Shown: positions 39,545-63,600, counted from the stretch's first letter. The stretch is DNA of 64,000 nucleotides from Selaginella moellendorffii (GCF_000143415.4 NW_003314309.1:1231034-1295033), one strand, 5' to 3'. Numbers and translations: made by a program. The notes: generated by a model from the letters alone, not told the origin.

Positions 39545-39995
39545 TCGAGATGGACCCGAGTTGGAGTCCGAAGTGGAGTCCGAGAAGGACCCCGAGATGG
39601 AGTCCGAGGTGGAGTCCGAGGTGGACCCGAGGTGGACCCGAGATGGACCCGAGATGGAGTCCGAGATGGACACGAGATGGAGTCCGAGATGGACCAGAGA
39701 TGGAGTCCGAGATGGACCCGAGATGGAGTCCGAGATGGACCTGAGATGGACCCAAGATGGGACTCGAGATGGACCCGAGATGGAGTCCGAGATGGAGTCC
39801 GAGATGGACCCGAGATGGAGTCCGAGATGGAGCCCGAAGTCGAGACCGGGACCCAGACCGAGACTGGGACCGAGACCGAGACCGAGACCGAGATCGGGAC
39901 CGAGACCGAGACCGAGGCCGAGGCCGAGGCCGAGTCCGAGTCTGAGTCCGAATCCGAGTCCGAGTCCGAGGCCGAGTCCGAGTTCGAGTCTGAGA
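39545..39995. repeat. Compound mini/microsatellite in the 5' LTR (GAGATGGAGTCC / GAGATGGACCC, then GAGACC, GAGGCC, GAGTCC)
   Basis: Directly visible tandem arrays. Confidence 0.95.
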
Positions 39996-42900
39996 GGGTG
40001 AAAGCCCAAAGTGTTCGTCTCCCAGACCCTGGGGGGTTTGGTGAGCTCCAAAAGTATAGTAGGGGGAGGACTGTAGTGGAGCCAGTTTGGCCAGGAAAGG
40101 CCAGTCTGGCCCAGGAAGGCCGGACCCAGTGTTGGGTGATGAGCTGCCCATTGGGAAGTCCAAGACTAGAGTGAACACGGACTGACAAGCGGGGTAGCTT
40201 GGTGAAGTGTTCAAGAGCCAGCTCTAGTTCCCCCAGGAGATCGACTGGCCGATGCTCCCAGTCCAAGTGTGGGTGGCACTACTTACTTGGATACCTGGTG
40301 TGGCTCAACGGAACCTCGCTCTAAGCCCATGGCTAGAGCACCCAAAGGTAGAAGGTGAGGAGAGTACCCACGAGGCCCGCGTAGGGCCACGGTGTTCCGA
40401 AATGTTGCCCCAAAGTCCCAGACTGTGGAAAGGAAGAGGAGTAGCCCTCTAGTGTGGTGACAAGGGACACAGTCACACAGTAAGGAAGTCCTAGAGGACA
40501 GTTGGACTTAGTGGTCAGGCTTATGGGCCTTGATCCAGTGGCAGTGTTGGTGAACACGGCCATGGACAGAAAGGGACTTGGTGGGGACCAAAAAGGAGAT
40601 ATTGGGGAAAGTTATTTCCCATGTCTGTGGGCATCCTAAGGATGCTAAGGAGTGGATCTGGGATGACCACTCATGGACGGATAGCCCAGTCTTGGAGAGA
40701 CGGGATTGCAATGCAGGTGGTGTTGGACCACCGATGTGACCAAGGTGATTGGGCATGGCCTAGCGTAACGGGCTGGTATGTTGGTGGTGCCTTGGGGTGT
40801 CGGTCAAGGGATCGGACACGTGGAGCACTTGGACCAAGTGCAAAAGTTGAGTGGCATGGATGCCATTCGCGGGGCTAGCAAGCCCCAAGTTCTGAATGGG
40901 ACTTATGGAGGTTGTGAATGAGACTCCTCCAAGTGGTCGGAGGTGCGGTTAAGTGACTAAAGTAGAATGGAAAAATTAGTCGCTTACAACTTGGTATCGG
41001 AGCTGTTCCTTAGTCCGACTTTTATTGGTGCTCATGTATATCACCATTGGTGTTGGCATCGGAAGGTCTGAGGAGTGGGCCTATCCATGAGGAGTAGCAG
41101 GTCGGGAAAACATGGCTCTCCATTATAGTTCATGTGTGAACTTGTAGACACGGTGGTGGATAGAAAAGGGCCAATGATGGAACGACTTTGGGATCTTGGG
41201 AACAGTGCAAGGTTTTCCTCATTGAGTTGAGGAGGTGATCCAGATGAGCATTTGACTCAACAAACTGGCTAATGTAGTTGTGGTAAACAACTATAGTTGG
41301 GATCACAGGGAAGATAGAGACTCCAAAAACAATAAAGGAGTCACAAGATTATCCTCATATAGTTGAGGCTGGTGCTCATGAAGGTGAGACCGGAATGGAT
41401 GACTGTGAGAGGTCAAGTATGTACGAGGACACGAGTGTTTGAAGTGGTAGCCAATGTTACCTTTAATAAATGCTGGAACAAGGGGGTGTGCTCAAAGGAT
41501 GAGTCAGTATTCTCATTATATGGACAGGTAGTCCTAAGGAGAAAAAGTAGCCCACAGAGAACGGAAAATAATAAAGTGTTAGAGTGACACTTGCAAAGAC
41601 GGTCCTTATGAGTAGGACATGAATACACGAAGTTGTATTCTGGTGTGCTAGCACCTCAAAAATAGGACCTTGTGGGTTATTGGATTGGCAAAGTCCGAAA
41701 ATGCTAAATGACTCGAGTAGAGTCAAAGGATGATCCTGAAGGATTGGTGAAAGCATTTAGACTGAGGTGTGTGGTGCCCCATGAAGGATGGGGAGGATTT
41801 TAAGATCCAAGTATGAGAACAGTAGGTATCTCATTGATGGCAGAAGGTGCCATGCTAAAGTCGTGGGAAAGAGTTTCCTGGAAGAAAACAACTTTCACAC
41901 AAAGTTGTGCATGGACTCTATGGTGCAGTGCTAATGGATAATTGGCATAAGAGACAACCATATTAGTTTTGGCAAAAAGACCTAGACACAAGTAAGAAGT
42001 GTCATAAAGGTAGGCTCGTGGAGCTGATGGTGTGGAGACACCGAAGGTGCCAAAGCGTGCTGCCTTGATGTCAAGTTAGCAGGTTTATGAGAACCCCTTC
42101 CAAAGGAATCCCAATGGAAATGGGAATAGCAGAGCCTATGTTAGAAGGCATGTGGTTAGAGTGTGGTGACCCAGATAATGATGGAGGTGTGGAAGCACCA
42201 GCAATGAGTTGTAGGACTTGACAACTATGAGGCAACTAAGCAAAATGTGCAAAATAAATCGTTAAACTGGTAGAAGGCAACTACCTAACACTTCTTATTG
42301 GGATAAGGAAGTTAGATATACCCTTATGGGGGAGAAATTACTTATATTGCGATATAGTAAGTCAATGTCGTAAAGGGAATGCTCATTGTCAAAGAAGCCA
42401 TCATTGGGACACCCAAGCACTCTGGAACACCAGGAGGTGGTGTTTGGTGCCGTGAGGGCACGGATAAGGCCCAAGGGACAAAGTCCCTAGTGAATGATGG
42501 ATAGGAAGTGCTATCCAAATGCCCAAGGTTGCGGAGACAGGGGAAGTCCGTTTACCCAAATTAGACAAAGCCAAAAAGGGATTTTGGCAAGGCTAGTGAT
42601 GGGCATATAAAGGCCCATAAGTAACAACGGTGATCCCAGGGTGTGGGATTACAAGGTGAGCAAACCCGGATTGAGGAACCACTCCCTAGGCTGTCGGGTA
42701 GGTTCATCCCTATGAATACTTGCCAAGGCATGGTAGAAAGTGCAAAGCTATCTTCCTAATCTGGAGGAGAATAACCGAAGGAAATGTATGAGGCCAAAAG
42801 GCAAGTAGTATAGGGATAGAACCGAACCATAGGAATTGACAGGCATGACTAAGGGTGGTTATGCAAGTTGGGAGTGGAGAATCAAGTGGGTGCTCAAGCA

Positions 42901-45264
42901 TGTTGTTACTAGCGACCGGGATGCCATGGAGAGTCTAAAGCATGGGATTGTCCATGTTAGACTATATAGTAATTGGAAAGCTTGCGAAAGGAGAGGCTTT
43001 AGCAAGCTAAGGAACAGAGTTCCTTGAACGTTCCCCTAGGTAGATAAGTACCTAGTCAGCCAAGTGTAAATGGTTCATAGAACGCGCGAAATCAGAGTGG
43101 CGCAGCAGAAGCGTGGTCTTGAAGCTTGCCATGAGGCGAGGCTATCAAGATTGGGGACGTAGTTCCTGAGCGTTCAACAAGAGGGCTTTGAACGAAAGTC
43201 GATGGTTAAGGACTTTCACACTTATGCATGAACCATGTTATGGTGGCCGAATGACTTGCTAAGTGAGATTGGCAAGCCGGGGGGAACGAATACCCTAGTT
43301 GAAGGAGCCAACTTCAAAGGGGGGCCTAGGAGGCTGAGCATGGAGGAGTCCATGCATGATTAGAGACATGTCAAGAGAGGACTTGGCAGTGCGGAGGAAC
43401 TGGGTTCCTAAGCTGTGATCTGTAGCGCGCTTTATATATAAGTTGGTGCACCGGCGTGGGGAGTCACGCCAGGCATCCGGTGTGATGCCATCCGTAAATG
43501 CATATACGGAGGTTGGGTTCGAGTCCCGACCCTCTAGTGCTTGGGTTCGAGTCCCAAATCACTAGGGCGTGGTGATGGTTTGGAATATGAGGACACTCAT
43601 ATTTTGGTGGTCATGGACTCTCAGTGAGGAGACTGGTTTGGGCACACCGCCAAGCGAGGGATGCCTTGGAGTCGTGATGCACGGTTAGATTGCTTAGTGT
43701 GAAAGCTCAGCATATCTAACTTGAACGCTTTGGTGCAAGTGGCACCAAGGACGTGGTGAGTGAGATGGGGACACCTAATCTCAGTTGCTATGAACCCTTG
43801 GCCGTAAGGGCTGGCTTGGGTGCACCACCAAGTGTGGGGGATGCCCCCGGGGTTATGGTCAACAACTTGAAGGTCTAGAAGACCAAGTACCTCTTGGCAA
43901 CTCTGTTAAGGTGCCAAGGTGAGATCACTAGGTGATCTTATGGCCAAATAAGGACAAGGTCCTTGGTTGGCTAAGGAAGGAAGTTCCTGGTTCAAAATGT
44001 TGATTTGAACTATTTAAGATGGTGTGGCTTGGTCAAAGTGATCAAGTGGGAAGAGCACCTAAGGGAAATAAGCTGTGTCCGTGTGATGGCATAGTGACTC
44101 CGAGGAAAGTAGTCTCTATAAGAGACCCATGGGAGGGTCACGAAGTTGAGCCGTGGATAGAGCCCATAGCAAAAAATGCTAAAGAGGTGTACTTGGAGTG
44201 AACATCCTCTGGACTTGGCAAAGAAGAGTCTTTGCTATGGAACTGAAGGGATACCTCGAAAATGGAGGTAGCGATCCTATGTTGCTGGGTGCAACAATCA
44301 AGGATAGGAGCAAAGGATTAGTGGCCAAGTTTGGGCCATGGAATTTAATGGAAGGGATCCAAATGACAAAGTTAGCCAAGGAACACTAATGTGTTTAATG
44401 CTAACGGCTTGTGGGAAAGGAAGTGGACTTCCAAGGATGGATTCCTAAGTGCTCCAATTTGGCGAAATAAAAGCTCCAAGTGAGGGAGCGGCAAAGTAGC
44501 CAAATGATAGGGCCGTGGACAACCCTAGCACAAATTATGATAACCGGAACTTAATGCCAAAGGTGGCACGAAATTAAAAAGAGGATGATGTTGCCCTCGA
44601 GTAGAGGACTTCCTAAGAGGGGGAAGTGGAGTTGCACAATATGTGCAATGCAAGGTGTCGGAGACACCCAGGAAATTGACTTCAAGAAGTCAGAATTAAA
44701 AGTTCCAAAATGCAAGGGTTATATCGATGGAAAGTGAGACCACTCGAGAATGAGTAGTGGGATTGAGTTAGAGAAGGTGTCTCTAACAGGTTTAGTGAGA
44801 ACTAAACCAATAAAAGGAAAGAACCACCACAAGTGATCGAATGAGCCTCTAAGTTGGAGGGGCTATGCTCCTTAAAGGATGGACAAGGCATGGTGAGCCT
44901 TTGGTGTCAAACCATAGACAAATATTGGCTAGGTGCCAAGGATGGAAATGGTAACACGTGCGGGTGTTACTTTATGAAAGGGTTTACCGTTTGATGAGGA
45001 CATCGAACTTTGTCTATGGGTGGTGGAGTTGTGAGACACAAAATCCCTAGGCCCCAAAGTGGAGCCGGAGGGGCGCCACGTGGTAGTGGCCAAAGCAAAA
45101 GCCAAACGAGCATAACACGTTTGGACTAAAAGCTCTGCCTTGAAAGGTCGAGAGCGGGAGTGGAACTCCCAACAAAGTGCTTGAGGAACAAGCACAAAGA
45201 GAGCAATAAGCGAGGCTCCAAAAAGGGGCCCAAAAGGACCAACACATGACACGTGGAAGTGTCC

Positions 45265-45935
45265 AAGATGGACCCGAGTTGGAGTCCGAAGTGGAGTCCG
45301 AGAAGGACCCCGAGGTGGAGTCCAAGGTGGAGTCCGAGGTGGAGTCCGAGGTGGACCCGAGGTGGACCCGAGAAGGACCCGAGATGGAGTCCGAGATGGA
45401 GTCCGAGATGGAATCCGAGATGGACACGAGATGGAGTCCGAGATGGACCCGAGATGGAGTCCGAGATGGACCCGAGATGGAGTTCGAGATGGAGTCTGAG
45501 ATGGACCCGAGATGGAGTCCGAGATGGAGTCCGAGATGGAGTCCGAGATGGAGTCCGAGATGGACCCGAGATGGGACCCGAGATGGGACTCGAGATGGAC
45601 CCGAGATGGAGTCCGAGATGGACCCGAGATGGAGTCCGAGATGGAGTCCGAGATGGAGTCCGAGATGGACCTGAGATGGGACCCGAGATGGACCTGAGAT
45701 GGAGTCCGAGATGGACTCGAGATGGACCCGAGATGGAGTCCGAGATGGAGTCCGAAGTCGAGACCGGGACCAAGACCGAGACCGGGACCGAGACCGAGAC
45801 CGAGACCGAGATCGGGACCGAGACCGAGACCGAGACCGAGGCCGAGGCCGAGGCCGAGTCCGAGTCCGAGTCCGAATCTGAGTCCGAGTCCAAGTCCGAG
45901 TCCGAGTCCGAGGCTGAGTCCGAGTTCGAGTTTGA
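45265..45935. repeat. Expanded compound mini/microsatellite in the 3' LTR
   Basis: Same units as the 5' LTR, about 220 bp longer. Confidence 0.95.
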
Positions 45936-48238
45936 AAGCCCAAAGCGTTCGTCTCCCAGACCCTGGGGGGTTTGGTGAGCTCCAAAAGTATAGTAGGGGG
46001 AGGACTGCAATGGAGCCAGTTTGGCCAGGAAAGGCCAGTTTGGCCCAGGAAGGCCGGACCCAATGTTGGGTGATGAGCTGCCCATTGGGAAGTCCAAGAC
46101 TAGAGTGAACACGGACCGACAAGCGGGGCAGCTTGGTGAAGTGTTCAAGAGCCAGCTCTAGTTCCCCCAGGAGATCGACTGGCCGATGCTCCCAGTCCAA
46201 GTGTGGGTGGCACTACCTACTTGGATACCTGGTGTGGCTCAACGGAACCTCGCTCTAAGCCCATGGCTAGAGCACCCAAAGGTAGAAGGTGAGGAGAGTA
46301 CCCACGAGGCCCGCGTAGGGCCACGGTGTTCCGAAATGTTGCCCCAAAGTCCCAGACTGTGGAAAGGAAGAGGAGTAGCCCTCTAGTGTGGTGACAAGGG
46401 ACACAGTCACACAGTAAGGAAGTCCTAGAGGATAGTTGGACTTAGTGGTCGGGCCTATGGGCCTTGATCCAGTGGCAGTGTTGGTGAACACGGCCATGGA
46501 CAGAAAGGGACTTGGTGGGGACCAAAAAGGAGATATTGGGGAAAGTTATTTCCCATGTCTGTGGGCGTCCTAAGGATGCTAAGGAGTGGATCTGGGATGA
46601 CCACTCATGGACGGATAGCCCAGTCTTGGAGAGACGGGATTGCAATGCAGGTGGTGTTGGACCACCGATGTGACCAAGGTGATTGGGCATGGCCTAGCAT
46701 AACGGGCTGGTATGTTGGTGCTGCCTTGGGGTGTCGGTCAAGGGATCGGACACGTGGAGCACTTGGACCAAGTGCAAAAGTTGAGTGGCGTGGATGCCAT
46801 TTGCGGGGCTAGCAAGCCCCAAGTTCTGAATGGGACTTATGGAGGTTGTGAATGAGACTCCTCCAAGTGGTCGGAGGTGCGGTTAAGTGACTAAAGTAGA
46901 ATGGAAAAATTAGTCGCTTACAAGTACATGGAACAACTCATGGAACCATTGATAAGCTAATATTAATCCTGCCAACTCAAAGTGTAACATTGAGTTGCTA
47001 ATGTGCGTCACTCACGAGCCCAAGCGCAAACTCGTGAAAACGGAATAACTTAATCCCTCTTATGAGCCCAAGAGCAAGCTCACATTATTATGGTACAAAA
47101 AGGTAACCAAAATCCACACCCAAGGAACAATTGCGAAGCCTTTGCACCCAAACGTGTACCCACTTGGATCATCATTTTCATCTCTGCATATGTAACAAGA
47201 CTAGTTGCCCAATCTTATTGGATAGTACTCGCCGAGACTCATCCTCTGATACCAAATGTAACATACGTGGTTTTGACCCTTTATCCTATGGTGATTTACT
47301 ATAGGATAACACCACGAAGCAGAACCTAAACCCTCCATGTGCCACGTGTCATATGCCATGTGTCCATAGGACAGTGGTGTGGAACCTGAGTTTCAGGGCC
47401 TTGGGCCACTAAATGAAGGAACGGTGCCAAACTCCCAAGCATGGAGCCAAGGAGTGACAAAACCAGTCCACAGAGCAACTCCCGAGCACACAGCCCAAGG
47501 AGCGAAGGAACAAGAGCACGGAGTGACTTGGAACAGTCCTGGAGTATCCAGCACCCCAATGCCAGGACCAGTATGCAAAACGGAGCCAAACGGATTCTGG
47601 CGCTATTTCGGCATACCGGTGGCCTAACGCAAGGATATGGGTACTCCACCAGCTAGAATGGAATGAACTTGGGCTTAGACCCAAGCCGAATGCAGAACAA
47701 AAATAGGCACACAGGTGAGATCTAGACTATGCCTCAGGTTGGTCGGCCATGCCCGACCTACCCACTATCCCTACTATAGATTTGGAACCCCCACAGAAGC
47801 TCTATTTTGTTAAAGTGGGAATTGTCATTATCCCACTTGTAAAATAAGGTTTCCAAACCTTTATATAGTATATAAATATAACAAAATTCAACTGCATTGA
47901 GGCACATGCCATTTTATTTTAAACAAGGAAATGTCTACTCAATCACTTCTCCTCCCCCTGCCACTGCTTCACCTCTTTCTTCTCCTTGTCATCGTCGTTC
48001 AATTTCTTTCCATCCTTTTAATATTGGCTCAGTTGCTCCGAGTCTAGGTGGAGCCCAAGTCCCCATTCAATCTTTACTTTCCCCTTATTAATAAAACAAC
48101 TTCGTAGACTTCCAATAACATGCTTTAACACTTCTAGTATAATGCAAATCCTCTCAAAGAATTGTCTTTTAATATTAATACAATGGCATGGAACCCCATG
48201 CCATAATAAGTTACATTTTTAAATAAATACATGCCATC

Positions 48239-49101
48239 TCAGACTATTATTTTTTGCCTCCAACGCCTATACAATAATCTTGGAATTTCATCACTCTCCA
48301 CACTATCAGGATTTAAACCCAATAGTAATGCCATCTCTTCTCTAATACGTCCACGCTCATGTTCAGTGGTCGAAGAACCCATTCGGTTGAGTAGATTATG
48401 GAGATGCGGATAGTGCTTGGCTAGACAATATACATGCCATAAATGATGACTGGTGTCTGTCCGATCAAATGGCTTTTGATATATCGTTCCATCTGCCATT
48501 TGGTTGATTTCTGCAGCCACCTCCTGGACTGGCCGGTTCTCTATCACCATCGCTCCAAGCCGTTTTGCAAGGTCCCTTAGAACATACGGTTTCTTCTCCC
48601 TAGTTTCCATACTGCAAGAGATGGGGTGCACTACATATGTGTGCGTGTTCGCTGCAGTTTTAATCGGCGAGTCATCGATGATGAGGATTTCACTTGACCT
48701 AGCAGTCCGGTTCATCACTACAGCCTCTGGCTTGACGAAGATGGGCTTGCTACCCCTCACATAGACCATAGTCAAGCAATCCTCTTGCGTTAGGAGAAAG
48801 TCAAATGGTAATATTACTCGCGTCTGATCGTGCATCATCTGTAGCAACGTTAATGCATTGTGGCGCATCATGGATGTCCAAACTCCCAATTGCAAATTGA
48901 ACCCGGCCCTCTGTTTTAAGTGTCGCATGGTCATTATTAGATCCCGCAGTTTCTCCTGTGTGATTAATGTGAATCTGTCTCTTTTGACCAACTTGCGACC
49001 GCAGGCTTTGGAGGGTGCAGTGACATTCGAGGACGAGCCACGCTCATGGGAGAAAAGGACACTGTTTAGATCAAAAACGATATAGTACCTTCGCTGTGAC
49101 T
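48239..49101 (-). CDS. FCP1/NIF-like HAD-fold domain (probably the terminal exon of the cargo gene)
   Basis: YIVFDLNSVL (motif I variant), LGVWTSMMRHNA, KPIFVK, ILIIDDSPIK..N; splice acceptor at about 49102. Confidence 0.7.
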
Positions 49102-49185
49102 CTGAAATGAAATGCGTCAGCATAAAAAATGGTACAAGTCAATTTTACCATCTACAATATTAGCGAATGGTGCTCCCGATGGTCG

Positions 49186-52100
49186 TTAAGAGGGTTTTGG
49201 TCGAGGAAACGTGAAGGGCGGAAATACTCTCCTCTGCAATGTGGGGTCAATCGCATCCGATGGCGTGTGGGCACATGCCATTTCAGCTGTAGACTCTGGT
49301 ACAACTGGCTCAACAGTGGCATGGGGTGGTTCCGATGGCGTGTGATCACACGCCATTTCAGCTGGTGCCTCCATTGGTAAAGTGGACATGACCGAACAGG
49401 CAGCAGGGGCGGTGTAGGGAGGTTCCAACGGCGCGTAGTCAGACGATTGGGCACACGTTGAGTCCGTTGGAAATGAGGATACGACCGGCTCGACGGCTGG
49501 GGCAGCCTCATGCGGGTCCAATGGCGCCTGGTCACCGTCAGTTGGATACGTGGACAAGATTGACTCAGTGGTATGGGCAGCATCAAGTGGAGCGTGGTCA
49601 GCTTGCTTGGCGTTGATATGGATAGTAGCCTCCACCAGCTCTAATGACTCTTGCAGGCAAGTAGAGTCCACTGGCGGATCCATATGCATGTCCAAATATC
49701 TCCCTTCGATTGAGATGGTATCCTCCCGTGCTACTAAAAACAAACTCATTAGCACATTGAATCAACTATACTATATTTACCATCAACTGCTATTGAGGAA
49801 CTAGGACCGATATCACTTGGGCGCACTGCTGATTCTGAAGGATTGAACATACGTTTCGACCCTTGCTTGGCACTATCCTTCCTCGACACTAAAGGCTAGA
49901 GTTTGTATCTTAATTCAACTGAATAATCTCTACTTACCATTTGCTCTGCGACCTACATGGACAATGTTAGAAATGGTAAAAGGCTAGGAATGGATGTACT
50001 ATTATTTACCTGATGGTTTGTCTTGTATGACCTTCCTCCGCTGCTCTTTGGCCACCTCAGGCTGGCTATCGTCGTCATCATCATCGTCATCGTTATTGTG
50101 ATCGTCACCATTGTGAGGACCATCCAAGTCCTCTTCGTCCTCCTCTTCTTCGTCCTCCTCTTCTTTGTCCTCCTCTTCGTCCTTCTGCTCTTCCTGCTCA
50201 TTATCTTTCTCTGGCTCCTCATCCCCCTCTTGCATTTCTTCCATAGGCTGCTCAGGCTGGATGGCTTGTTCTTCCAGGACCATCTTGGGAAAATCATCTG
50301 GCCGAGTCTTCATCTCAAAATACAAGACATCCATAGCCTATTTTAGTGCGTGACCTAGGACCGTATCCTCACCCGACTGTCTTAACATGGTTTCTGCACG
50401 TTCTTGCACCCTTCGAAGACGATGAGATGAGAAAAACGTGGCCCTGACTTGAAAAGCATCCCTCATCCATTGTACCTCTCCATTGAGATTGGGGAAGGGG
50501 AGTCCGCCATAGGAATCTGAGTCAGGAGGTGGTGACTAGCTGCTTTCACTCAGCCCTTGATTTGCAATGAATGGCATGAGCACACACGCCATAACCGCGA
50601 GGCATTACCTATCATCTTTTCGTTGCCCTTCTTCCTTTTCGAATCAAACGCCTCTGATCCCGGTGACTGTCCAACGTGCTTTCGCTTTTTATGACCACTG
50701 TCAGTTTGAGCTTGGCTGGTGCTTGCCTGTTTTGCCTTTGAAGAAGTGTCTCCTGCAAGGAATGGCATGAGACCACACGCCATTGCAAATATAATTTGTA
50801 CCTCCTTTTTTCTTATTGTTTGTCTGTTTGTCCTTCTTCGACGCGCCACCAGTGCGATTTTCAGTCCTCGTGTCTGAATATTCACAACGATCTATAATCA
50901 AAATGGCGTGAGGCCTTACGTGACCTTACCTTGTGCAGGTTGTGAGCTCGGCCCAACATGGGTATCTTCAACAGTAGCTGTTAACGCCGTTTCAGCATCT
51001 GGGGGTGGCCACGCTCCTGCATACAGAGCTTGTGAGATAACATTTAAACTTAAAGTGCGTACTCACCAGGTTTGCAGAGAAGATACTGTTTTTCTTTGGC
51101 AACTGTAATTATATGCTCCATTGAAGTCACCTCTTCAATGGAGTTTGTCACCACAACACACGGGACACCCTTGAGTAGTGTGGCTCGAAAGAATAGTCCG
51201 CCGCAGTTGTACTCGACAACGCATTTGCCCTTGGAGTCGGAAGCAGGTGACCCACCCGCTATTGCGTTGAAGACCCAGCTGAGCATTTCCCATGCTGCAC
51301 CTGGAGCTTTCTCTGGATTCGAAAGCTCCATAGCCGTCTTCAGTTCCTCAGGCACGGGTAAATTGACCTCCCTCAGATCAATTCGATCGGCCTTGTCGAA
51401 CGAAGCTGGGAAGTCACTCCAGTCCCACTCTGCTGCAGGACCAATAACAAGGGCGAGTGTGAAGATGCGGACATTCGTCGGTATCTTCTTCTTAGCCATT
51501 ATCCCATGGATCTCCCGCATCTCCTTGCCTTTCAACCGAGCCTTCACCTCGTTCAAGGCCTTCTAGAACTTGTGATAGGATTCGGAGTCGTAGATCATAT
51601 AGTGGACTGAAGATTCCACCTCCGCAAGTCCCACCATTAAGTCAATGATGGAGCTGACTTCGTCTGCATAAGTGATCTCCTCGTTTGTGAAGTCCATCAC
51701 ACAAAAGATGTTCTTGACCTGCTCATCTCCGCGGGAAACGATGCTCCTCCACCTTTGATCCTCATCCAAATTCACGTATACCCGGTAAGGTTCTCGATAG
51801 GCCTCTGCTGCGGGGTCGAGCTGTTTCTGAAGCCGGCGGTCGACATCCCTCTTAATGAAATTTGGATACTGATCCAACTTCTCAGCTTTACTTTTCGTGG
51901 CATCCCGCAGCAGATCAATGAACTTGGGGGCCCCCTTCACGTACTCGTCGATGTCTTCATTTGACAACTTCAGCTCTTCCATCATCTCTTGCGTGGTGTC
52001 GATGCTCACCCTCTCCACGGCCACTTGCTCGAAGATCCAATCCTTCAATAGCGCACGAGCTCTCAGAGTCGTGCACAAGTCCTCGTATGTCACAATATGG

Positions 52101-53850
52101 CCGGGAGTCATTTTGGTCTTGTTGAAGACTACCTCACCACGTAGAAGAGCATTAGCCACTGTCAGAAGGTCGTCATCGTCTAGAAACGCAAGGCGTTGAG
52201 CTTCAAATCATTGGGCTTCCGGCCGTCCTCCACACCCATTGAGTTTAGCAACTCCCCATCATGGTACCTCTTCAGCACATCTACCCATTTGTCAAAAACA
52301 ACTTTTGTTTCGAGTAGAATGTTATGGATGCTGAGTGTGTCATTGACCCCCAGTGTTTTCGAGAGAAGACTCGAGAATTCCTGCAATGGAAATGGCGTGA
52401 GGCCACATGCTATGCCACATGCAACGAGGCTTACCTGCCAGGCGCTAGTTGCTAGTGCACGTCCTTGTCCTGGTTTTTGTGGCTTCTTCAGTTGAACCCA
52501 GAGCTTCCTTGTTCGTGCCAATGTCTCGTGCAGACCCGATTTGTAGCACATTTCTTGCTTGACATTTTGCGCGTGGGAGATATATGATAGATTGGAGGGG
52601 CGAGTTGCCTTTTATTAGGCGGACAACTCTTGTCTTGAAGACTTTCTTCACCTCCTCGCCCACCATAATATCCACAACTATCTCTTGCATCGCCAAGCTA
52701 GAATGCTGCCCGGAGACGGCATAGAACCGGATGTTCTGATCGTCCAACACCTTTCTATTGATCAAGTCTGGAAATGTCGTCTCGCCCTTCATTGTTCGGT
52801 AGTAGGGGATCACGTCTGCGATGTCGGGTGTTACTGGACTTGCCAGCATCTTCTGCTTCAGTTTCTCCACCCACTCATCAGATACTAGCCTATGGTTGTA
52901 TTTTCTTTGGATGTCGATACGGCTCACGTCGATTGTATATACTTTGTTGGAATAGTAACAAGTACTATTATCTGCGACGATTTTTGCTGCCTCTTCTTGC
53001 TCTTTCTGCTCTTTGCGGCTCTTCTTTTTGGTGGGTGTAGTGTTCGAACCCGAGGCAATGGCATTACCGAGTAGCTTCTTTTTTGGAGCAGGAGAGTCGG
53101 ACGTCGGCTTGAGCTTGACCACCCTTTTCTGCTTCGGGGTAGTTTCCAGATCGACCCCCTTCCCCTTCGCTTCGCGAACTGGAGGCACTCTCAACGGCTT
53201 AATGTTGGAATATAGTTTTTGAACATCGCCGTAGGTGAGGTCCGTGGATTCCATGTGATCTTCATAGACCCGCAGCGTCTTTGAAATTGTGGGCCTCCTG
53301 GACAACCTCTCCCTAGCTCCCTCTAGGAATTCCTCATAGCCGCTGCCCCCCTCCGGGAAGCCGCTAGGATGTGCAAGGTGGATCTTGAAGGCAGACGCTG
53401 TCTCTACCACAAGTGCCAGTCCATATTCTTGCATGGAACTGCATGGAGTGTCTGTCACTTGGATGAGGATCCCCATGCATTCTTTTTTCCCACCATCTGT
53501 GTTGTACAGCCTCAGATCCTCGCCTTCCATCCTGAAAGTCCAACTGGTGAGCTCCTCCCCCTTCTCTGCATCCACATTGACAGTGGCTGGAAGAAGAACG
53601 CAATTCCTCGCCTGTTCAAAAATGCACAACAATTAGAGCTGACAGATGAAAAGCTAGCAGCTGGAAATAACGTGAGGCCACACGCCATTCACCACTGCAT
53701 CAGATGTCTTGAGGTTGCATCCTAAGATGGCGTGAGGCTACACGCCATCTGTAACCGGACTGCACTCGAGAGCCCAATCGGTGCATGCCAATGTTGCTAC
53801 TGAATGGCATATGGCCTCATGCCATTTTCTACTTGGTCTAAAAGACTTAC
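49186..53850 (-). pseudogene. Multi-exon transposon cargo gene: ParB/Srx-like domain, degenerate methyltransferase-like domain, acidic and Pro-rich linkers
   Basis: YNHRLVSDEWVEKLKQKM..FYAVSGQHSSLAMQEI..YL(S)HAQN; later EKAPGAAWEMLSWVF..KCVVEYNCGGLFFRATLLKGVPCVVV; frameshifts about 52577 and 52184, TAG at 51563; GT..AG mini-introns; domain calls by motif recall only. Confidence 0.55.
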
Positions 53851-54903
53851 CATTTGAAGCCGAATGGAGGCGTCACAATCGAGGCCGGACTTGCTGGGGA
53901 ATGTGCACTGTGTGTGCAGCGGATCGTAGCAGCAAGGCTACTCTGCCACTTACAATTGGAGAGTGGCGCTGAAATCTCCCGGGATGCCAAGTGGGCTGCG
54001 TGTGGGTGGCGGAGTGGGCGGCGGAGTTGGCGGCGAAGTTACAAACTGGGTGTGTCTTGAAGTGGATGCCGATGCACACAAGCGCGATGCGAGCACGATG
54101 CGAGCGCGAGTGTGATGCAAGCGCGAGTGGACGCCGATGCACACGAGAAACCTGTAGAGAAGGTAGATGAGCGCGAATGTGAGCGTGATCGCGAGTGGGA
54201 GCGCGATGCAAGCGCGAGTGTGCGAGCGCGAGTACGATGCAAAACCTAACCTCACACGCACGAAATGTCACGACGGTTGGTAATCCCGCAACGTCATCAT
54301 TCCTCGGACTTGGGCACCACCATTAATTTCTGGATCGCCACGCGCATGCATGCACGTGAAATCCAAAAGAAATCCGCAACGTCATCATTCCTCGGACTGC
54401 ATGCACGCGAAATCCAAAAGAAAGATCATGATTGGGATATCATTTAATACCCTCGCTATATTTATACCATGCATGATTGGATATTCCAAAGCATCTTGTA
54501 TTTCCAAAAATGCCAGATGTTCAGCTAAATAAAGAATGGTATACAATGTCCTTCTTGATGACCCTGCAAAGAAGCATCTCGATCGGACACCACATGAGAC
54601 CACACGAGCCTTACAATGTTTCAGAGGCATTTGCCATAGATCTAACTGTTATTTTGCTCCAAGATTCTACAGTTTGGTGTGCATTGACCTTTCCATCGAC
54701 ACTGCAAAGGGACATCACAATTAGATGCGGGATCACAAGAAACCAACTTCACTAACTCTGGTTTCACCAAGATCTACGTAAGGAGTTATGAAATGAAAGG
54801 ACCCTCTCTATTGAAATGTGTTTATGGTCCTAGGGGCATTGTGACATATCAAAGGATTTTGCATCAAGTTCTGTATTTGCATGTTTATCAAGCTACTGAA
54901 TTG

Positions 54904-54930
54904 CTAAACCCTAAACCCTAAACCCTAAAC
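54904..54930. repeat. Short interstitial plant telomere repeat (CCCTAAA)n / telo-box cluster
   Basis: CTAAACCCTAAACCCTAAACCCTAAAC. Confidence 0.9.
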
Positions 54931-56194
54931 ATGTGGCAAATGCTGCGTGAAGAAAGATGCCCTTTCTGGGCAAATGCTGTAAGAGGCAAATGCCGAGCAG
55001 ATGTATCTCAGGCTAGCGAAGGGGACAAACGAAAGCTAGCTATAAACATGACGGGATGCAAATAGATTACTAGGCTGGTCCTGCGAAAATCAAAAACCAT
55101 AATTGAAAACATTGAAAATGCAAAAAGAAAGGTTTATAATATTTTTGAATTTTAAGCAACCAAAGGAATGTAAGTAGGGCATGTGTTTGTAAGTTTAAAA
55201 ATGCCTCAACCACTTAAATTCCCAAGTAAATAAAGCTGTTTCTATTTTTGGTACAGGTAAACTTTATAGCGTGTGGGCTCATGCAATTTTGAACCCAAAA
55301 ATGCACCAAAAAATGCTCGACTAGCATTATTCTTTGAATGGCGTGTGGCCTTATATTGCCATAAATGGACGTACACACACAGCATAATTATTCCTTTACA
55401 CGGCGAATAATCTTGGTGCGGATCGCTGACATAGCATAGCAAAGTTCGAATCACTGACATGGCACAGCTGGATCGAGGCAAGGACATGATGTGACAAAGT
55501 TCAACCTCCGACAGCAAAGTCTAGAAGCTACTCAGTTTGAAATTTGTCAGAGGAATCATAAGATTTGGTTTGTCAGAGGATTTGATGTGACGTTCAAGCG
55601 TGTGTTATTTTTGAATTCTCGAACTCATTCCTAGGTCTATCATTTTTGTGCGCCCTGTTCTTGGTTCCGCTGAGCGCAGTGAGCGCTGCTTGTGTAAGCG
55701 GCGTTGTGAGCTGTGGTTTATGCGTCTACGAGCGGTTGCGGCATTGCGAGCGCCATTGCGAGCGGCAGTTTATGCGAGTGGCAGTTTGTGCGAGCGGCGC
55801 TACGAGTAGTTGCGGTGTTGCGAGCGGCACTGTCTTTGGTGTGGCTACCGCTTCCTCTTGATATTCGGCACTTGTGCTTCCTGGTATGTTCACCATGGAA
55901 TGGCTTAGGACCACATTTAGAAATGGCATGAGGCCACATGCCATCTTGGGCCCTTGCAATTTCATGGCTAGCGTATTGTCATGTATGTTTTTACTTGCCT
56001 GCAGCTATGTGTATATCAAGATGGCATGAGGCCTCATGCCATTTTTGTGAATGCAAAATTTCACGTGGGTGTCAATAGCATGTTTGAATAATGGCATGTG
56101 GCCTCATGCTATTGAGGTTGTTTGGTATGTTATGATTTAGGCCATTCTCCAATCATTTTTTGTATGGTCTTAACTTCTTTTCTGCACTTTCAGA

Positions 56195-59020
56195 ATGGCC
56201 TCCGCAAGTGCGACGCATGTTCCCTCCGTGGATCTTAAGAACCGTGCTACATGGATTCAGGCAAAGGTGTTTCTAAACAACCCCGAGGGGGAGGTGGTAG
56301 CTGAGGGCTTAGCCACAATTGTCGATCCAAGAGATGCGGTTGCTAATCAAGAATTGGGCTGGGATGATATTGGAGTTGCGATTTTAGAGGTTGTTGACAC
56401 AGAAGAAAATAGTATGACTATTAGAAGCATTGTGCGGTGGAAATTGAGGCACTTAGTGTTTGAGAATGTGAAGGATTCACAATCAAACACCACTACAACT
56501 GATGACAGAACATCTCTTCATGGGAAAAGAAAGTACACCTTCCTAAAGCGCAGCCAAAGGGATCTGAGCAACGAACCGAAAAGGCAGAAATTGGCGATGG
56601 AGGTTCGAATGGTCTCGACAGTTGCTTGTTGCAAGAGGAGGTGCTGTCAACATGCTGATTGGGATGCTATTGAAGAGGAGAGAGCAAGATACAAGACATT
56701 GTCCTGGAAGGCAGCTCGCAATTTTGTGTATGAGGCATTACGGTCATCTGTTGATGCTTCAGAACATCAGGTGGGGGGCATGGTCTTCCAGAGGGGTTTG
56801 GTCTGCATGAAGGCATGGAGAATCATTTATGGAGTCCCTCGAACCACATTCTACAGAATCAAAACTGAGTTCGAGGAACAAAGGGTTCAACAGGCAGTCC
56901 ATGGGAACGACGGTACTCACAAAACCAGGGGTCATGTTGTATATGGAGAGGCAATCTTCAAGAGGTTTGTCGAGACATGTAGCGAGCAGCAACCACATAA
57001 AACCCGCCTCTTGGAAGATGGAACTCGAGACACCCAACGAGTTCTCCCTTCCATGTATACCAAGGGGGCCATATTGGAAGATGTGAATCGGGAACTCCAG
57101 AGTAATGGCTACAGGAAGCTGAGCCAATCTAGATTTAGTAGATTGTGGAGCAACAGGTTCAGGGATGTGAGTATAGAAAAGTACTCCAGCTTTTCAAAGT
57201 GTGACGAGTGCACTGCTATCAAAATGGCTTTGTCGAAGAATTCTTGCATCGCTCAAGAGCGAGAGACGTTGGTTAGAAGGCGGCTCGACCACAACATCGA
57301 GCAGAGAAGCTGCAGAACTGCATATTATCATAACAGGATTCTCTCCATGGAGAGACCTGACTCTTACCTCTGCATCATCCACGACAAAATGGACCAGAAA
57401 AAGACGTGCTTACCTCGACTCAATCCTGCCCCCAAGGCAATCTCTTCATCCATGCAGCTGCCTGTGTCTCTGTTTGGCATAATCGCTCATGGGCATGGTG
57501 CCCAGAACTATGGGAACTTCTTTGTACCTCTATAGGGTGGCGGGGGTGCAAACATGATGATTGCGTCCCTAGCAAAACACTTAAGGTCTCTGCAAAGTGC
57601 GCAGACTGAGCTGAACGGCCAACCCTTGCATAAGGCCCTTGTCGATCGAACCCCATACAGGGTTCAGCTGGAGGAGGAGCAAAGGCTTGCAGTATTGCGT
57701 GGGGCCCCACGCCATCCCAGTGAATATGTTAGCCGTCAGATTGTAGGGTTATCACGTGAGGCCTCATGCCATTCCGACGAGGCTAGTCGCCCGGTGAATG
57801 CACAGCCTCATCCGAACGAAGCAGAATCTCAAGGAAGTTCTTGCGGCCGATGTGGCCTTCCACCCCATCTTCTGCTCCAAACAGACAATGCTGGCAGTGA
57901 GAACAAAATCATGTACGTCTTCGCGTACTTGGCGATGCTTGTTGCCAAAGGCATATTTGAAACGGTTACACTTGGCTTTCTCATGGTTGGGCACACTCAT
58001 GAAGACGTCGATGCCATGTTCAGTCACCTGGCAGAGTCCCTCCGGCGATCCAATGTCCTCACCCTCCCACAACTCTACGATGAATTCCAAAATTGCATCA
58101 AAGGCACTGTTGAAGCTGCACTTGTGACAGAGGTTCCAGACTTTAAGGGGTTTGTAAGAGGCTACATCAGGGACGGATCCAAAACGCTGATTGGCCACTC
58201 CAAGCCTCTTCAGTTTCATTTCAACATGCGTGACGGTGCTCCAGTGATGAGGTACAAGATGAGAGAATGGGACACAGTGTGGCTGCCAATGGATGGCATT
58301 GAACTCTTCAAGAGAGATCCCATAACTGGGGAACCTATGATTCCTCAGGGTTCCCCACGGCCGATGCACCCGGATGGACTCAAAGACCAGGAAAGTATAG
58401 TGGCCGGGATTAGACAGCATATTGCCTTTTGGAAGAGGGGGTTGGTGTTTAATGGAGAATCCTATTTTTAGAGGTGCAAGCCTTTGCTCGAATACTGGGA
58501 GAAGATTATATCTGCTATCCAAAATGGGCCGGTTGTATATGAAGAATTGGAAGAGTCCTTTTGGCCAGAACCCAGAGCACCAGATAGTAGCGGAACAATG
58601 TCCTCTGGAAATGCAGTGATAGATAACGATGTTGAGGATCACTATTGTGGGCCGAGGAACAAGAAGCCGGATTCAGCATTCAATCCAGTATAGGTTTGCA
58701 AAGGAATGGTCGTGCTTGTCAGACCCAGTAATAAAAAACAAATGATATGGGTAGGGCGCTGCATCACTGATGCAAAGGAGGACGCAGAAACTAACTCCTT
58801 CAATGTAACTGTGGAGTGGTTCAAGCCAAGTTCCGGATATACGAAGGATTGCCTAGAAAAGAGATGGGTGCTAAATCCAAGGGATCCCAGCATGAGCATA
58901 TCGGTGGATAATGTTGTGCATGGTTGGATGCGGAAGCAGAGTGCCACCATCACCTTGCCAGACCATGCAAGAGATGCAGCAAGAGCATTCATAACCCGGG
59001 TTCAAGGTGAGATTCATTAA
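56195..59020 (+). pseudogene. Sola-like DDD/E transposase, about 941 codons in one frame with three in-frame TAG stops (57533, 58469, 58691)
   Basis: CCKRRCC, VCMKAWRIIYGV, FSKCDEC, CIIHDKMDQKK, LQTDNAGSENK, FLMVGHTHEDVDAMFS; ORFs at 56195, 57554, 58484 and 58706 share one frame. Confidence 0.85.
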
Positions 59021-60635
59021 TATTCCTTTACTAAGTTTCTAATGTATTTTATTTCAAGGTGAACAATCCGAATCTAAATCAGAGGAGGCGTGATGGCATG
59101 TGGCCTTACACCATTCCTAGGTTAGATGATACAAATAACAAGTATAAATTCTTAGTTGTTCTAGCAAATCTTACTTAAAGTTCAAGGTGAACAAGCCGAA
59201 TATGAATTCATCGGATTGTTATAACAAATTGCGAGGTGATGGCATGAGGCGATACGCCATTTGAGAGTGGTAGCCATTCCTATATGAGGTGAGTGAAATA
59301 TTTATTAGAAATACCTCATTCAATTGTGCACTTCTAAGTCTTGGTCCACTCAGTACTGTTTGCATGTTTTTATTTTAATTCTTTCTCTAAAATGTTATTT
59401 AGCATGTGGCTTCATGCCATTGCTCTCCACAATCATGCATTGAATTTTTCTATCCTTGCATAATACTTCTCCATATATATAGCATGTGCGCACATGTGAT
59501 ATGGTTCATTAGGCCTGATATAGTGTGTGAGGTAAAACAAAGATGATGTGACATATGCATTTACCAATCACACGTGCATAAATCTAATAATATGGCATGT
59601 GGCCCATATTAATGGCACATAAACCCATATTGTGGGCTTATGTGCTTTATGTACCATCATTCCCTTGCAGTGTGTGTGTTGGTTTCCTTTTATAACACAA
59701 CGAACTCCATATTTTAGGGTGAAGAGCGTTCTCATGGCAAGCACAAAATCTGTAAGTGAGGCAGAAAAGGAGACGAAGAAGGAGATAGGTGAAGATGTAG
59801 AATATATAAGTCTTCCAAACTCCCCATACTATACTCCAGGTGATCATTTTTCTGAACAAACGGCAACATTAACAACTATCGAGAACGCCCCAGTAACGTC
59901 AGAGACAACAATCCAAAGCAAAACAACTGACCCGGAGAAGGATGATAGTACCGCGAGGTGTCCACTAGCGCTTAGGCTTATAATGGCGTGTGCCCTCATG
60001 CCATTTACTTGATCACCAAATACCTTTTTCCCTTTGCACTAGTATATCTTAATACCGGTCTGAGAAATAGAATGGCATGTGCCCTCAGGCCTTTTACTAA
60101 ATCACCTTTGAAAGAAATGCAAGCCTCTATGTCGTAAAAAAAAGGTACTAGAGAAATTCCTTAATAATATGAATGTTATTTAGTTTCATGAAAATACACT
60201 AAGGGTCAAATGAGTTAAATGACTTCTCCAGACTAGCAATGCCTCTTGCTACACCTTCACAATTAGATTTGTTAGAAAAAGATAACATTGAATAATATCT
60301 AAATGTTCTCACCATTAAGTTATATGTCTGGCTAATAGGAATGACGTTCATCTTGGAAAGCTCACCACACGCTTAATGAATAAACAAATAGTGTGTGCGC
60401 GCATGCCATCACTCTTCTTTAGCTTCAGATTCGGCTTGTTCACCTTGACAATGAGATTTATTATACAACCAGATGGACTCAGTCTGGACACAAAGTCACC
60501 GCGCTAGTCACCATGCCCCAGATATGTCTAGCCCCTGGACAAAAAACATATAATTTCACGTCATTTTCAAATACTTGAAAATTTGTACCTAGTCCCATTT
60601 TACTAAATAAATCCCACTTTAACGAAATAGAGCTT

Positions 60636-63600
60636 GCATTGGTAAACCATATTTTTGTACCCTATCTAGATCATTTTGTTGTCATTTATATTAACGACAT
60701 CCTGATTTATAGCGAGATGCTAAAGGAGCATGCTGAACACTTAACAAAAGTGTTTGAGAAACTAAGGGAACATAAGTTGTATGCTAAAGAGAGAAAATGT
60801 GACTTTGCTCAACAAGAGGTAAAGTTTTTTGGGCATGTGGTGGGGAAAAATGTGTTCAAGGTGGACATTGAGAAGGTGCAAACAATCCAAGAATGGGAAT
60901 GATTACTGAATGTACACAAATTAAGTGTTGTTGGAGTTATGCAACTACTACCAAAAGTTTATCAAACACTATTAACCCTACTTTTAACAGATCAACTAAG
61001 AAAAAGAAAGATGGTATAAATAATAGGTAGTATTTGTCCATTTCAAAGGGAAATTGAGGAACACTCCTGCATTGGCATTATCAAACTTTGGTAAGGACTT
61101 CGAGGTAGAAACAGAAACTTCAAACTTTGCATTAGGTGCAATTTTGAAGCAAAACAACCACCCAATGGCATTCTTCTTGAAGAAGTTGAACAATGCTCAA
61201 CAAAAATGGCCTACCCATAAAAAGAAACTATTTTTGGTGGTCAAAACGCTCAAGGAGTGGCAACACTACCATAGGAGGCACTTCAAAGTATATATGGATG
61301 TGGCAATAAAACACTTTTTGTCATAACCCGACCTCCAAGGGAAATAAGGTTGGTGGGCCAATGCTTTTAATGAGTTCAATTGTGAGATTTTGTATAAATT
61401 TAAGAAGAGCAATATCATGGCAAATTCTCTAAGTCAAAAAGTAAGCTTAAAGTTAGTGATATCTAACACAACAACAACCTTTTGGGATGATATACAGACA
61501 ACATATGAGGATGATGGTTTAGAACAAGAAGTGTTGCTAAGGAACTAAGAGGAGTAGGATGCTCACTAAAGAGGTGAGCCATCTAGGGAAGAGAAAATGG
61601 GTTATATGGAACACAATAAACTCATTTATTATAGGTAAACAAAGGTGTATGTTCCACAAGAGGAACTAAGGAAGGTAGCCTTTAAAGAGTGTTATAATGA
61701 ACTTTTTGTGGGACATAGCAAAGTGTCCAAGATGATGGGTTTACTTAAGAAAAAGTATCACTAGCCAGACATTACTAAGGACATTCAAAACTATGTAAAG
61801 AAACATGTCAGCAGATAAAGGTCATAATTAAAGTTACTAAGGGCTTGTTACAAAGTTTCCTAATTCTTAATCATCTGTGAAATTTTTTTATAATGGACTT
61901 CATCATAGGAACCCCCCCCCCCCCNNNNNNNNNNNNNNNNNNNNNNNNNNNNNNNNNNNNNNNNNNNNNNNNNNNNNNNNNNNNNNNNNNNNNNNNNNNN
62001 NNNNNNNNNNNNNNNNNNNNNNNNCTTAAAGTTGGGGTTTTTCCCCCCCCCCCCCCCCTTTGGGGGGGGATTCCCCCCCCCCTTGGGGGGGGGGGGTTTA
62101 AAACAAAAAGGTTTTTTAAGGAACTTGGGGGGGGGGGGTCCCCCCTAAAGGGGGGGCCCCTTTGGGGGAGGAAAAAGGGGTTTTTGGGACCCCCAAAAAC
62201 CCCTTTTTTTTGGGGAAAAAAGGGGGTTTTTTCCCCCGGGGGGATTTGGGGGGGGCCCCCTTAAAGGGGTTTTAAAAGAACTTTTTGGGGGACAAAACAA
62301 AGGTTCCAAGGGGGGGGGTTTTTTTAAAAAAAAGTTCCCCCCCCCCCCCCTTTTTGGGGCCCTTTAAAATTTTGTAAAAAACCCTTCCCCCCGAAAAAGG
62401 TTTAAATTAAAGTTTATAGGGGGCTGTTAAAAAATTTCCAAATTTTTAACCCTTGGGGAAATTTTTTTTAAAGGGGTTTTCTTAAGGGGACCCCCCCCCC
62501 CCCCCCCCCCCCCCCAAGTGAGAGGTTTGATGCAATATTTATAGTGGTGGATCGCTTTTCTACTGATTAAGTAAATAATTTGGGACTTACAAAAATGTGC
62601 TATAATAACTCACCACATTTGAGTATTGAGGTGAGTTTATAAGAAGTCATTAATAGATGAGTTATTGAAGGTCTCATAAAACTTGGCATGGCCAAGTATC
62701 ATCGAGAGTTACTTATAATGGAGATGTTCATGGTGGAAAGACTCAATATTTGGAATCTAGTGAAGGATTCCTTAGAATAGACTCAATAAATGCAAACCAA
62801 ATACACAAACCAAAAATGAAAGTTCTAACTTAAAGAGAAGGTATAGTTAAACACAAAGAATCTAAAGCTACCAAATGAGATCAGCTAGAAGTTGACCCAA
62901 AGGTAAAATGCATATATTCCTAAAAATGAACTAATCTTAAGTTCTTTAAACAAGTTTGCAGAGCCTTATGAGATTGAGGCTTAAATTTGTAAGATGGATT
63001 ATTGCTTCTGACTTCCCTGAAAGATGGGGAAGATGCATTTTGTATTTCGTATGAACTTATTTAAGCCGTACTTTGAGGACCTATTTTGCAAAGACCAAAT
63101 GAAAACTTTACCCAAGGTTATTCAAGGGTAGGAGGAATATGATGTTGAGGCCATCCTCAAGAGCAAGCAACAATGAATGAGTCCTATGTAAAGTGGAAAG
63201 GATTTCCACTTTACAAAGTAACATGGGAACCGGAGGAGAACTTAGTGAACACTCGAGATATAGTGGAAGAATTTTTACAAAGTAGAACTTTATATACCTA
63301 TGCAAAGTTCAATTAAAATATCCATTTGTGAAATTGAGTAATATCATATATTGGGACCCAAAGGTAAGCTAATTAGCATGGGTTTAGTTAAGTCGACCAA
63401 GCGTGGGGAGCTACACTTGACTTATAGAGGGGATATTAAATCTGTAGACATATTTTATAAAGGTTGGGTTCGAGTGCTAACTTTAGTAAAGCAAGGCTAT
63501 GTTAGTCCCAACCCTCTACTAAAGTGAGGTGAGGTGAGGGGTATAGGGACATTTATATCTTATTATCATGAGCTCCTAGCTAAAGAGATTAACTTAGACA

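What the first reader, a model, noticed from the sequence alone, without database searches (positions are those of the whole stretch)
50540..53850. Tiny introns of the cargo gene carry copies of the palindrome
Seen: minus-strand GT..AG introns at 52381-52434 (54 bp), 50753-50801 (49 bp), 50874-50929 (56 bp) and 53612-53692, plus probable ones at about 50540-50608 and 53722-53850, each contain the 22-mer (the last contains two). The motif makes up about 40% of the smallest introns. Not every intron has one (e.g. about 51018-51066). Inference: introns may act as neutral docking space that keeps binding sites distributed through the gene, or the hairpin-forming motif may be linked to intron origin or splicing control.
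Basis: partly seen in the sequence, partly recalled or inferred. Interest (0 to 1): 0.78.

Follow-up and report, generated by a model that had tools for sequence, protein, structure and literature searches.

The report
Transposon's own palindrome inside tiny introns
A young, many-copy plant jumping gene carries 23 copies of its own 22-letter palindrome, ten of them in predicted introns and three lying where a tiny intron's branch signal is predicted to be, so the palindrome is likely a docking site for one of the element's own proteins that was fitted into introns, rather than a splicing switch or a source of introns.

Summary
The region is a 12.8-kb, high-copy DUF7869 (Sola-like) DNA transposon with 24-bp inverted ends. 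Ten predicted introns give the cargo gene a 1,643-codon frame; nine are needed for the frame; no RNA shows splicing. Motif density per kb: introns 9.5, other non-coding 2.2, coding 0.5; 4 of 10 tiny introns carry it. The two arms vary independently (no hairpin covariation), copies also sit in exons and spacers, and intron-less relatives carry other motifs in coding DNA, so it is likely a DNA docking site. In three ~50-nt introns its right arm supplies CTCAY at the predicted branch position. A distant relative has its own palindrome in a 69-nt transposase intron. Which protein binds is untested; the cargo's ParB and methylase labels are leads only. Ectocarpus Sola1-1_Ec32 has a like design, VANDAL/VANC has intronic sites, and this scan noted similar palindrome-bearing elements in other plant genomes before.

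The parts
47797..60635 (.). Whole DNA transposon (DUF7869, Sola-like), 12.8 kb, high copy; ends are 47802/60630 if the flanking AGCT is a 4-bp target duplication
   Evidence: Inverted ends 23 of 24 identical; all but one motif copy confined to it; held over its length by runs whose whole assembly is 3-4 Mb
47797..47820 (+). Left terminal inverted repeat
60612..60635 (-). Right terminal inverted repeat
   Evidence: an X3 contig runs on into other DNA after 60635
56195..59094 (+). Transposase gene, one frame broken by three TAG stops in this copy; predicted last intron 59007-59058 (52 nt, no motif); two coding motif copies at 57694 and 57751
   Evidence: Pfam DUF7869 E=2e-39; ORFs; 30-53% identity to homologues; last intron
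55884..56193 (+). Predicted 5' intron of the transposase gene with three motif copies (55923, 56021, 56091)
   Evidence: GT..AG with pyrimidine tract before the ATG; not confirmed by RNA
48239..53853 (-). Cargo gene, 11 predicted exons, 1,643 codons; ParB-like stretch (lead), methylase-like stretch (by eye only), C-terminal NIF/HAD-like domain; this copy has four internal stops and two frameshifts
53612..53850 (-).
   Evidence: frame test
52381..52434 (-). Intron 2 (54 nt), motif at 52392-52413, CTCAC adenine 18 nt from the 3' end; in frame, so not required by the frame
51017..51066 (-). Intron 3 (50 nt), no motif, CTCAC adenine at -17
50874..50929 (-). Intron 4 (56 nt, or 38 nt with the acceptor at 50892), motif at 50903-50924 just after the donor
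50753..50801 (-). Intron 5 (49 nt), motif at 50762-50783, CTCAT adenine at -16
50562..50608 (-). Intron 6 (47 nt), motif at 50571-50592, CTCAT adenine at -16; acceptor is AG in the family, AA in this copy
49953..50009 (-). Intron 7 (57 nt), no motif
49889..49937 (-). Intron 8 (49 nt), no motif
49734..49780 (-). Intron 9 (47 nt), no motif
49102..49148 (-). Intron 10 (47 nt), no motif; its branch region aligns with the motif's right arm
49260..49356 (-). Two motif copies inside a cargo exon, read in frame, products of a 75-nt local duplication
59093..60409 (.). Seven motif copies downstream of the transposase
48183..48204 (.). Motif copy downstream of the cargo gene
55266..55287 (.). Motif copy between the two genes (a weaker one at 55338)

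Best explanation
The 22-mer occurs 23 times along a high-copy DNA transposon and is likely a double-stranded DNA site for a two-fold symmetric protein encoded by the element, most likely the cargo protein with its predicted ParB-like domain, which would mark or protect the element along its length; the predicted introns likely hold most gene-internal copies because there they cost no amino acids, and in ~50-nt introns the right arm is predicted to serve as the branch site as well. Shown: the copies, their places, their confinement to the element, the independent variation of the arms, the frame dependence of nine introns. Inferred: splicing, branch use, protein binding, the binder's identity and the purpose (anti-silencing or self-marking).
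For: Confinement and number. Two half-sites ATGGCRTG around a looser centre; positions 6/17 complementary in 12 of 23 copies (11.1 expected) and 9/14 in 8 of 23 (9.3 expected). At half-site positions 5-6, CA 25, CG 18, TG 2: C5 is held while position 6 is free (P=6e-6), which plain CpG decay would not give. Density 9.5/2.2/0.5 per kb in introns/other non-coding/coding. No gap above 1,603 nt; coding copies lie where introns are lacking. CTCAY adenine at -16 to -18 in introns 2, 5, 6, where 5 of the 6 motif-free tiny introns have a YTRAY/CTCAC adenine at -15 to -17; random placement gives 6-9% each. Locus L049, a distant DUF7869 element, has its own 18-bp palindrome four times upstream and once in a 69-nt intron that splits the Pfam domain at positions 94/93 and ends in an in-frame stop. 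L003 has a third palindrome 8-9 times upstream of its transposase. Intron-less relatives L057, L068, L045, L079 carry their own motifs through long ORFs. Precedents: Sola1-1_Ec32, VANC21 sites in VANDAL21 introns, VirB on parS-like palindromes.
Against: No binding, expression or splicing data. The ParB label rests on an Atlas lead (DUF3723 on 14% of members at 0.94; ParB_N on 11% at 0.90) and on a motif read by eye; Pfam, PHROGs, NCBIfam, PDB sequences, 1.84 billion representatives and phage records gave nothing, and both folds were unusable (pLDDT 35 and 34). The stretch reads GQHS where ParB CTPases have an arginine motif (recalled). CpG content near motifs equals that far from them (0.66 and 0.66), and the error pattern of run X2 suggests most copies are methylated at CWG, so no protection is visible. 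Even spacing is significant only after a post hoc merge into clusters (P=0.001; single sites P=0.21) and in 2 of 13 related loci, which may be one family. The five closest relatives L001, L004, L005, L006, L010 show no motif on their short contigs.
Confidence: 0.58

Rival explanations
1. The palindrome is a site for the transposase itself (subterminal repeats or an internal enhancer spread through the element) that helps assemble the transpososome; the cargo is not involved.
For: Copies cluster near the right end and before the transposase gene; relatives L003, L024, L027, L049 have motifs on both sides of, or upstream of, the transposase with no cargo identified on those contigs. Subterminal binding repeats are common in DNA transposons (recalled).
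Against: The motif is not part of the 24-bp end repeat; the left end has only one clear copy within 1.4 kb; 9 copies lie inside the cargo gene, up to 6 kb from either end.
Confidence: 0.2
2. The motif works in the RNA: it folds into a hairpin that hides the branch site and so controls splicing of the cargo transcript.
For: Introns 5 and 6 are predicted to fold with the branch adenine paired (-14.5 and -16.2 kcal/mol); all four tiny-intron copies have the CTCAY form on the sense strand against 17 of 46 overall.
Against: No covariation between arms; in intron 2 the branch adenine is predicted unpaired; 13 of 23 copies are outside introns; relatives use non-palindromic, strand-biased motifs in coding DNA.
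Confidence: 0.08
3. The motif made these introns: units carrying it were inserted or duplicated (introner-like), or exon DNA became intron once the motif supplied a branch site.
For: Introns 2, 5, 6 end alike after the motif, and introns 2 and 6 start alike; symmetric introns proliferate in Hypoxylaceae (PMC8469720, abstract).
Against: Flanks of intronic copies are no more alike than chance among 506 comparisons; only two non-intronic pairs reach the 99.9% level. Motif-free introns have the same size and branch geometry. No exact intron-less DNA form of introns 3-6 among the four joints listed.
Confidence: 0.08
4. The palindrome is a site for a host transcription factor that the element has collected to drive its expression.
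For: Three copies sit in the first intron of each gene.
Against: Exact half-sites: 35 inside the element, 3 in the other 51 kb; each related element has a different motif.
Confidence: 0.06

Closest known systems
Sola1-1_Ec32 of Ectocarpus (PMC12477816; passages and supplement rows seen; figures not seen)
   Same: Large Sola-type element with an accessory gene on the strand opposite the transposase; 4-bp target duplication; the authors propose that the ParB-like plus N4/N6-methylase protein binds and modifies its own element.
   Different: 21.5 kb with 282-bp ends against 12.8 kb with 24-bp ends; 1,104 aa against 1,643 with a NIF-like domain; the word 'palindrom' does not occur in that paper's main text, so no target site is described there; sequence homology was not tested.
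VANDAL21/VANC21 anti-silencing system of Arabidopsis (PMC5735166; passages seen)
   Same: Family-specific DNA motif gathered in introns, spacers and ends of the element and bound by an accessory protein of the element.
   Different: Mutator-like element; 9-nt non-palindromic motif multiplied in tandem repeats. Here a 22-nt palindrome stands as single copies outside tandem arrays, inside ~50-nt introns, on the predicted branch site; binding and demethylation are untested.
ParB/parS and Shigella VirB (PMC10653881; passages seen)
   Same: A ParB-family protein loads at palindromic sites and, in VirB, offsets silencing.
   Different: Bacterial; CTP-dependent. Here the ParB fold is a lead only and the arginine motif appears absent (recalled motif).
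Introner-like and symmetric proliferating introns (PMC8469720; abstract seen)
   Same: Introns with internal symmetry.
   Different: Those introns are copies of one another with 45-55-nt terminal inverted repeats; these share only the 22-mer and splice signals.

Membership tests
Spliceosomal U2 introns | GT..AG ends, branch-like signal near the 3' end | tested here: met
   intron 6 has AG in the family only; intron 8 has no YTRAY match
Spliceosomal U2 introns | Removal needed for an open frame | tested here: met
   9 of 10; intron 2 not needed
Spliceosomal U2 introns | Removed from RNA | tested here: inconclusive
   No RNA holder listed; X20, RNA only by guess, spans introns 1, 6 and 10 without a joint
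Sola superfamily DNA transposon | Sola-type DDE/DDD transposase | tested here: inconclusive
   DUF7869 E=2e-39; no paper holds the term DUF7869; the link to Sola is recalled and echoed by earlier scan notes; no Repbase sequence compared; subgroup not assigned
Sola superfamily DNA transposon | Terminal inverted repeats | tested here: met
   23 of 24 identical
Sola superfamily DNA transposon | 4-bp target site duplication | tested here: inconclusive
   AGCT on both sides only if the ends are 47802/60630; a second copy also reads through 60635, so these letters may belong to the ends; the left flank is an LTR element
ParB plus N4/N6-methylase accessory proteins (Sola1-1_Ec32 type) | Opposite strand to the transposase within the element | tested here: met
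ParB plus N4/N6-methylase accessory proteins (Sola1-1_Ec32 type) | ParB-like domain | tested here: inconclusive
   Atlas lead; no HMM, sequence or fold support
ParB plus N4/N6-methylase accessory proteins (Sola1-1_Ec32 type) | Amino-methyltransferase domain with catalytic motif | tested here: inconclusive
   No hit; by eye no DPPY/SPPY-type motif in the translation (motif recalled)
VANC-type anti-silencing system | Accessory protein binds the motif and removes methylation locally | not testable with these tools
   CpG near and far from motifs equal; no methylome
VANC-type anti-silencing system | Motifs multiplied in tandem repeats | tested here: not met
   No tandem array covers a motif; only two local duplications
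Introner elements | Introns are near-copies of one another along their length | tested here: not met

The most novel reading that the evidence does not exclude
A eukaryotic transposon runs a parS-like system: its cargo protein loads at a private palindrome kept at intervals of at most about 1.6 kb along the element, and in a genome with ~50-nt introns the site has been merged with the intron branch point, so one 22-mer is read as a protein site in DNA and as a splicing signal in RNA, and changes in the protein's specificity would be tied to splicing of its own gene.
Probability: 0.22. Interest if true: 0.78.

Novelty: new variant of a known kind. Interest (0 to 1): 0.5.

Why it matters
Accessory ParB-methylase proteins of algal transposons are proposed to bind their own element, but the passages I read name no target site. 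This element offers a sharply defined candidate site and shows how such sites can be spread through a 5.6-kb gene at little coding cost. It makes self-recognition by these elements directly testable and gives a natural case of a DNA site overlapping a predicted branch point.

Tried and rejected
No whole genome held. No RNA holder listed; X20 is RNA only by guess and showed no splice joint; X24 laid nothing. Motif conservation among copies: in 50525-51110 run X1 shows only two variants above 5%, both in exons, so no rate comparison was possible; decay after insertion is in any case expected to be neutral (inference). The depth peaks of run X2 over introns are not intron-specific protection: depth follows the lack of CAG/CTG sites (rho -0.86) and not CG (rho -0.03), and the motif-free intron 3 peaks too. 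The exact motif was not found in metagenome contigs; the transposase was not found in viral contigs. Cargo searches were blank and no cargo homologue lay in the 80 loci; cargo proteins of L045/L068/L079 are related to each other but not detectably to the window's and have no family hit. Both structure predictions failed and their fold searches are meaningless. An automated intron finder on the loci was noisy and missed the L049 intron, so no count of motif-bearing introns in relatives is given. No Rfam match. The original Sola description could not be read. Paper searches; none listed a paper on palindromes in Sola introns, but most subscription papers are not held.

Full report
Setting. The finding lies in a 12.8-kb element at 47797-60635 with inverted ends identical at 23 of 24 bases. 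It holds a DUF7869 transposase on the plus strand (E=2e-39), broken by three stops in one frame, and a divergent multi-exon gene on the minus strand. The window also has PPR, copia and gypsy genes, so the host is a land plant; earlier scan notes call it a spikemoss (not checked by me). Of 24 runs listed, 20 hold the stretch, 17 of them with whole assemblies of 2-4 Mb, and contigs of X1 and X3 cover all 30 bins. I infer a high copy number; the tool's depth is not a copy count. This copy differs from the family mostly by C-to-T and G-to-A changes (116 of 148 places in X1).

The motif. 23 copies with at most 5 mismatches lie inside the element and 1 outside; simulations give 0.6 per window. It is two half-sites ATGGCRTG around a looser centre. 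The degenerate positions do not pair more than chance (6/17: 12 of 23, expected 11.1; 9/14: 8 of 23, expected 9.3); only the innermost pair 11/12 does slightly (16 of 23, expected 12.1, P=0.03). At positions 5-6 the 46 half-sites read CA 25, CG 18, TG 2, CC 1. That is the pattern expected of a sequence-read site for a symmetric protein, not of a selected stem.

The introns. A model with ATG at 53853 and ten introns gives 1,643 codons with four internal stops, given placeholders at two indels seen in other copies. Three of the four stops have another letter in the family (50538 and 50340 in over 99% of X1 depth, 49188 in 64% and not in X3); the fourth was not among the 40 of 154 rows shown. Retaining any one intron adds 3 to 81 stops, except intron 2 (54 nt), which adds none. 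Nine cargo introns and the last transposase intron are 47-57 nt; four of these ten hold the motif. Each gene also has a longer first intron with three copies. Splicing itself is not shown.

Where the copies sit. Ten of 23 lie in 1,058 intron bases, nine in 4,014 other non-coding bases, four in 7,767 coding bases. The largest gap is 1,603 nt and seven gaps are 1,077-1,603 nt; this is not unusual for 23 random points (P=0.21) and is unusual for ten clusters (P=0.001), but the 400-nt merging rule was chosen after seeing the data. In introns 2, 5 and 6 the right arm puts CTCAY with its adenine at -18, -16 and -16; five of the six motif-free tiny introns have a branch-like adenine at -15 to -17. 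Random placement gives 6-9% per intron, though a 22-mer in a 50-nt intron that must keep a branch site has few other places. In intron 4 the adenine is at -36, or at -18 with the nearer acceptor. Flanks of intronic copies are not alike beyond chance, and no tandem array covers a motif.

Other copies. In 50525-51110 the family is nearly uniform: X1 shows two variants above 5%, both exonic, and no listed joint removes an intron exactly. Run X2, of the same sample, has extra A-to-G and T-to-C letters at the centre of CAG/CTG and one-base indels, and its depth falls with CWG density. I read this, from recalled nanopore behaviour, as CHG methylation of most copies; the run's platform is not on record.

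Relatives. Eighty loci with a related transposase were fetched. Of 52 longer than 3.3 kb, 24 have a repeated 16-mer exceeding both controls by three or more; several are minisatellites, end repeats or the same element assembled twice, and 28 show none, among them five of the seven closest. I inspected six. L003 has another palindrome 8-9 times at about 140-nt spacing. L057, L068, L045 and L079 carry strand-biased tandem heptamer or octamer motifs through long ORFs (11 of 15, 20 of 22, 9 of 19, 8 of 18 copies in ORFs of 300 aa or more). So a private dispersed motif is common in this transposase clade and needs no intron. Evenness was significant in 2 of 13 loci.

The cargo. The C-terminal exon matches NIF phosphatase just under the cut-off (21.0 against 21.8 bits). 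The ParB-like call is an Atlas lead; the methylase-like call is by eye. All other searches and both folds failed (see Tried and rejected). Which protein binds is therefore open.

What is known. Sola1-1_Ec32 carries an opposite-strand ParB plus N4/N6-methylase gene proposed to bind and modify its own element (PMC12477816, passages and supplement rows); I was led to it by earlier scan notes on similar plant elements with palindrome arrays. VANC21 binds a motif in introns and spacers of VANDAL21 (PMC5735166, passages). VirB shows a ParB-family anti-silencer on palindromes (PMC10653881, passages). PMC5751038 (passages) gave no Sola features that I could test. The works cited for algal ParB-methylase proteins and the original Sola paper were not read and may describe such sites.

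Verdict. A real feature, with corrected coordinates; likely a protein docking site fitted into introns, with branch-site overlap as the new detail. New variant of a known kind; interest 0.5.

Noticed in passing
L057:971-2203, L045:7085-8086, L068:6190-7353: Large DUF7869 elements with a second cargo gene that looks by eye like a C5 DNA methyltransferase (three related proteins, no Pfam hit), next to their dispersed motifs.
   Followed up: partly
L045:3303-4991, L068:616-4347, L079:146-4378: A shared large cargo protein family of unknown kind in these elements; not detectably related to the window's cargo.
   Followed up: partly
window 50525-51110, run X2: Miscalls at the centre of CAG/CTG and depth loss with CWG density, which may read out CHG methylation from assembled long-read data.
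   Followed up: partly
window 54904-54930: About four telomere-like TTTAGGG repeats between the two genes.
   Followed up: no
window 53990-54233 and 55738-55798: CG-rich short tandem repeats upstream of both genes, varying in length among copies.
   Followed up: no
window 53917-53956: Other copies carry different or extra sequence here, in or near exon 1 of the cargo gene.
   Followed up: no
window 59660-59960: Possible small third gene or 3' exons with splice-like signals between motif copies.
   Followed up: no
window 47257-47795 and 39300-46923: An LTR element begins one base from the transposon's left end and is itself interrupted by an LTR element whose LTRs hold 12-nt tandem arrays.
   Followed up: partly
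window 61916-62503: A 100-N gap with a low-quality, homopolymer-rich duplicate of the preceding 400 nt: probably an assembly artefact.
   Followed up: no
L035:1-9819: Complete 9.8-kb DUF7869 element with long inverted ends and a cargo with a weak SET match.
   Followed up: no
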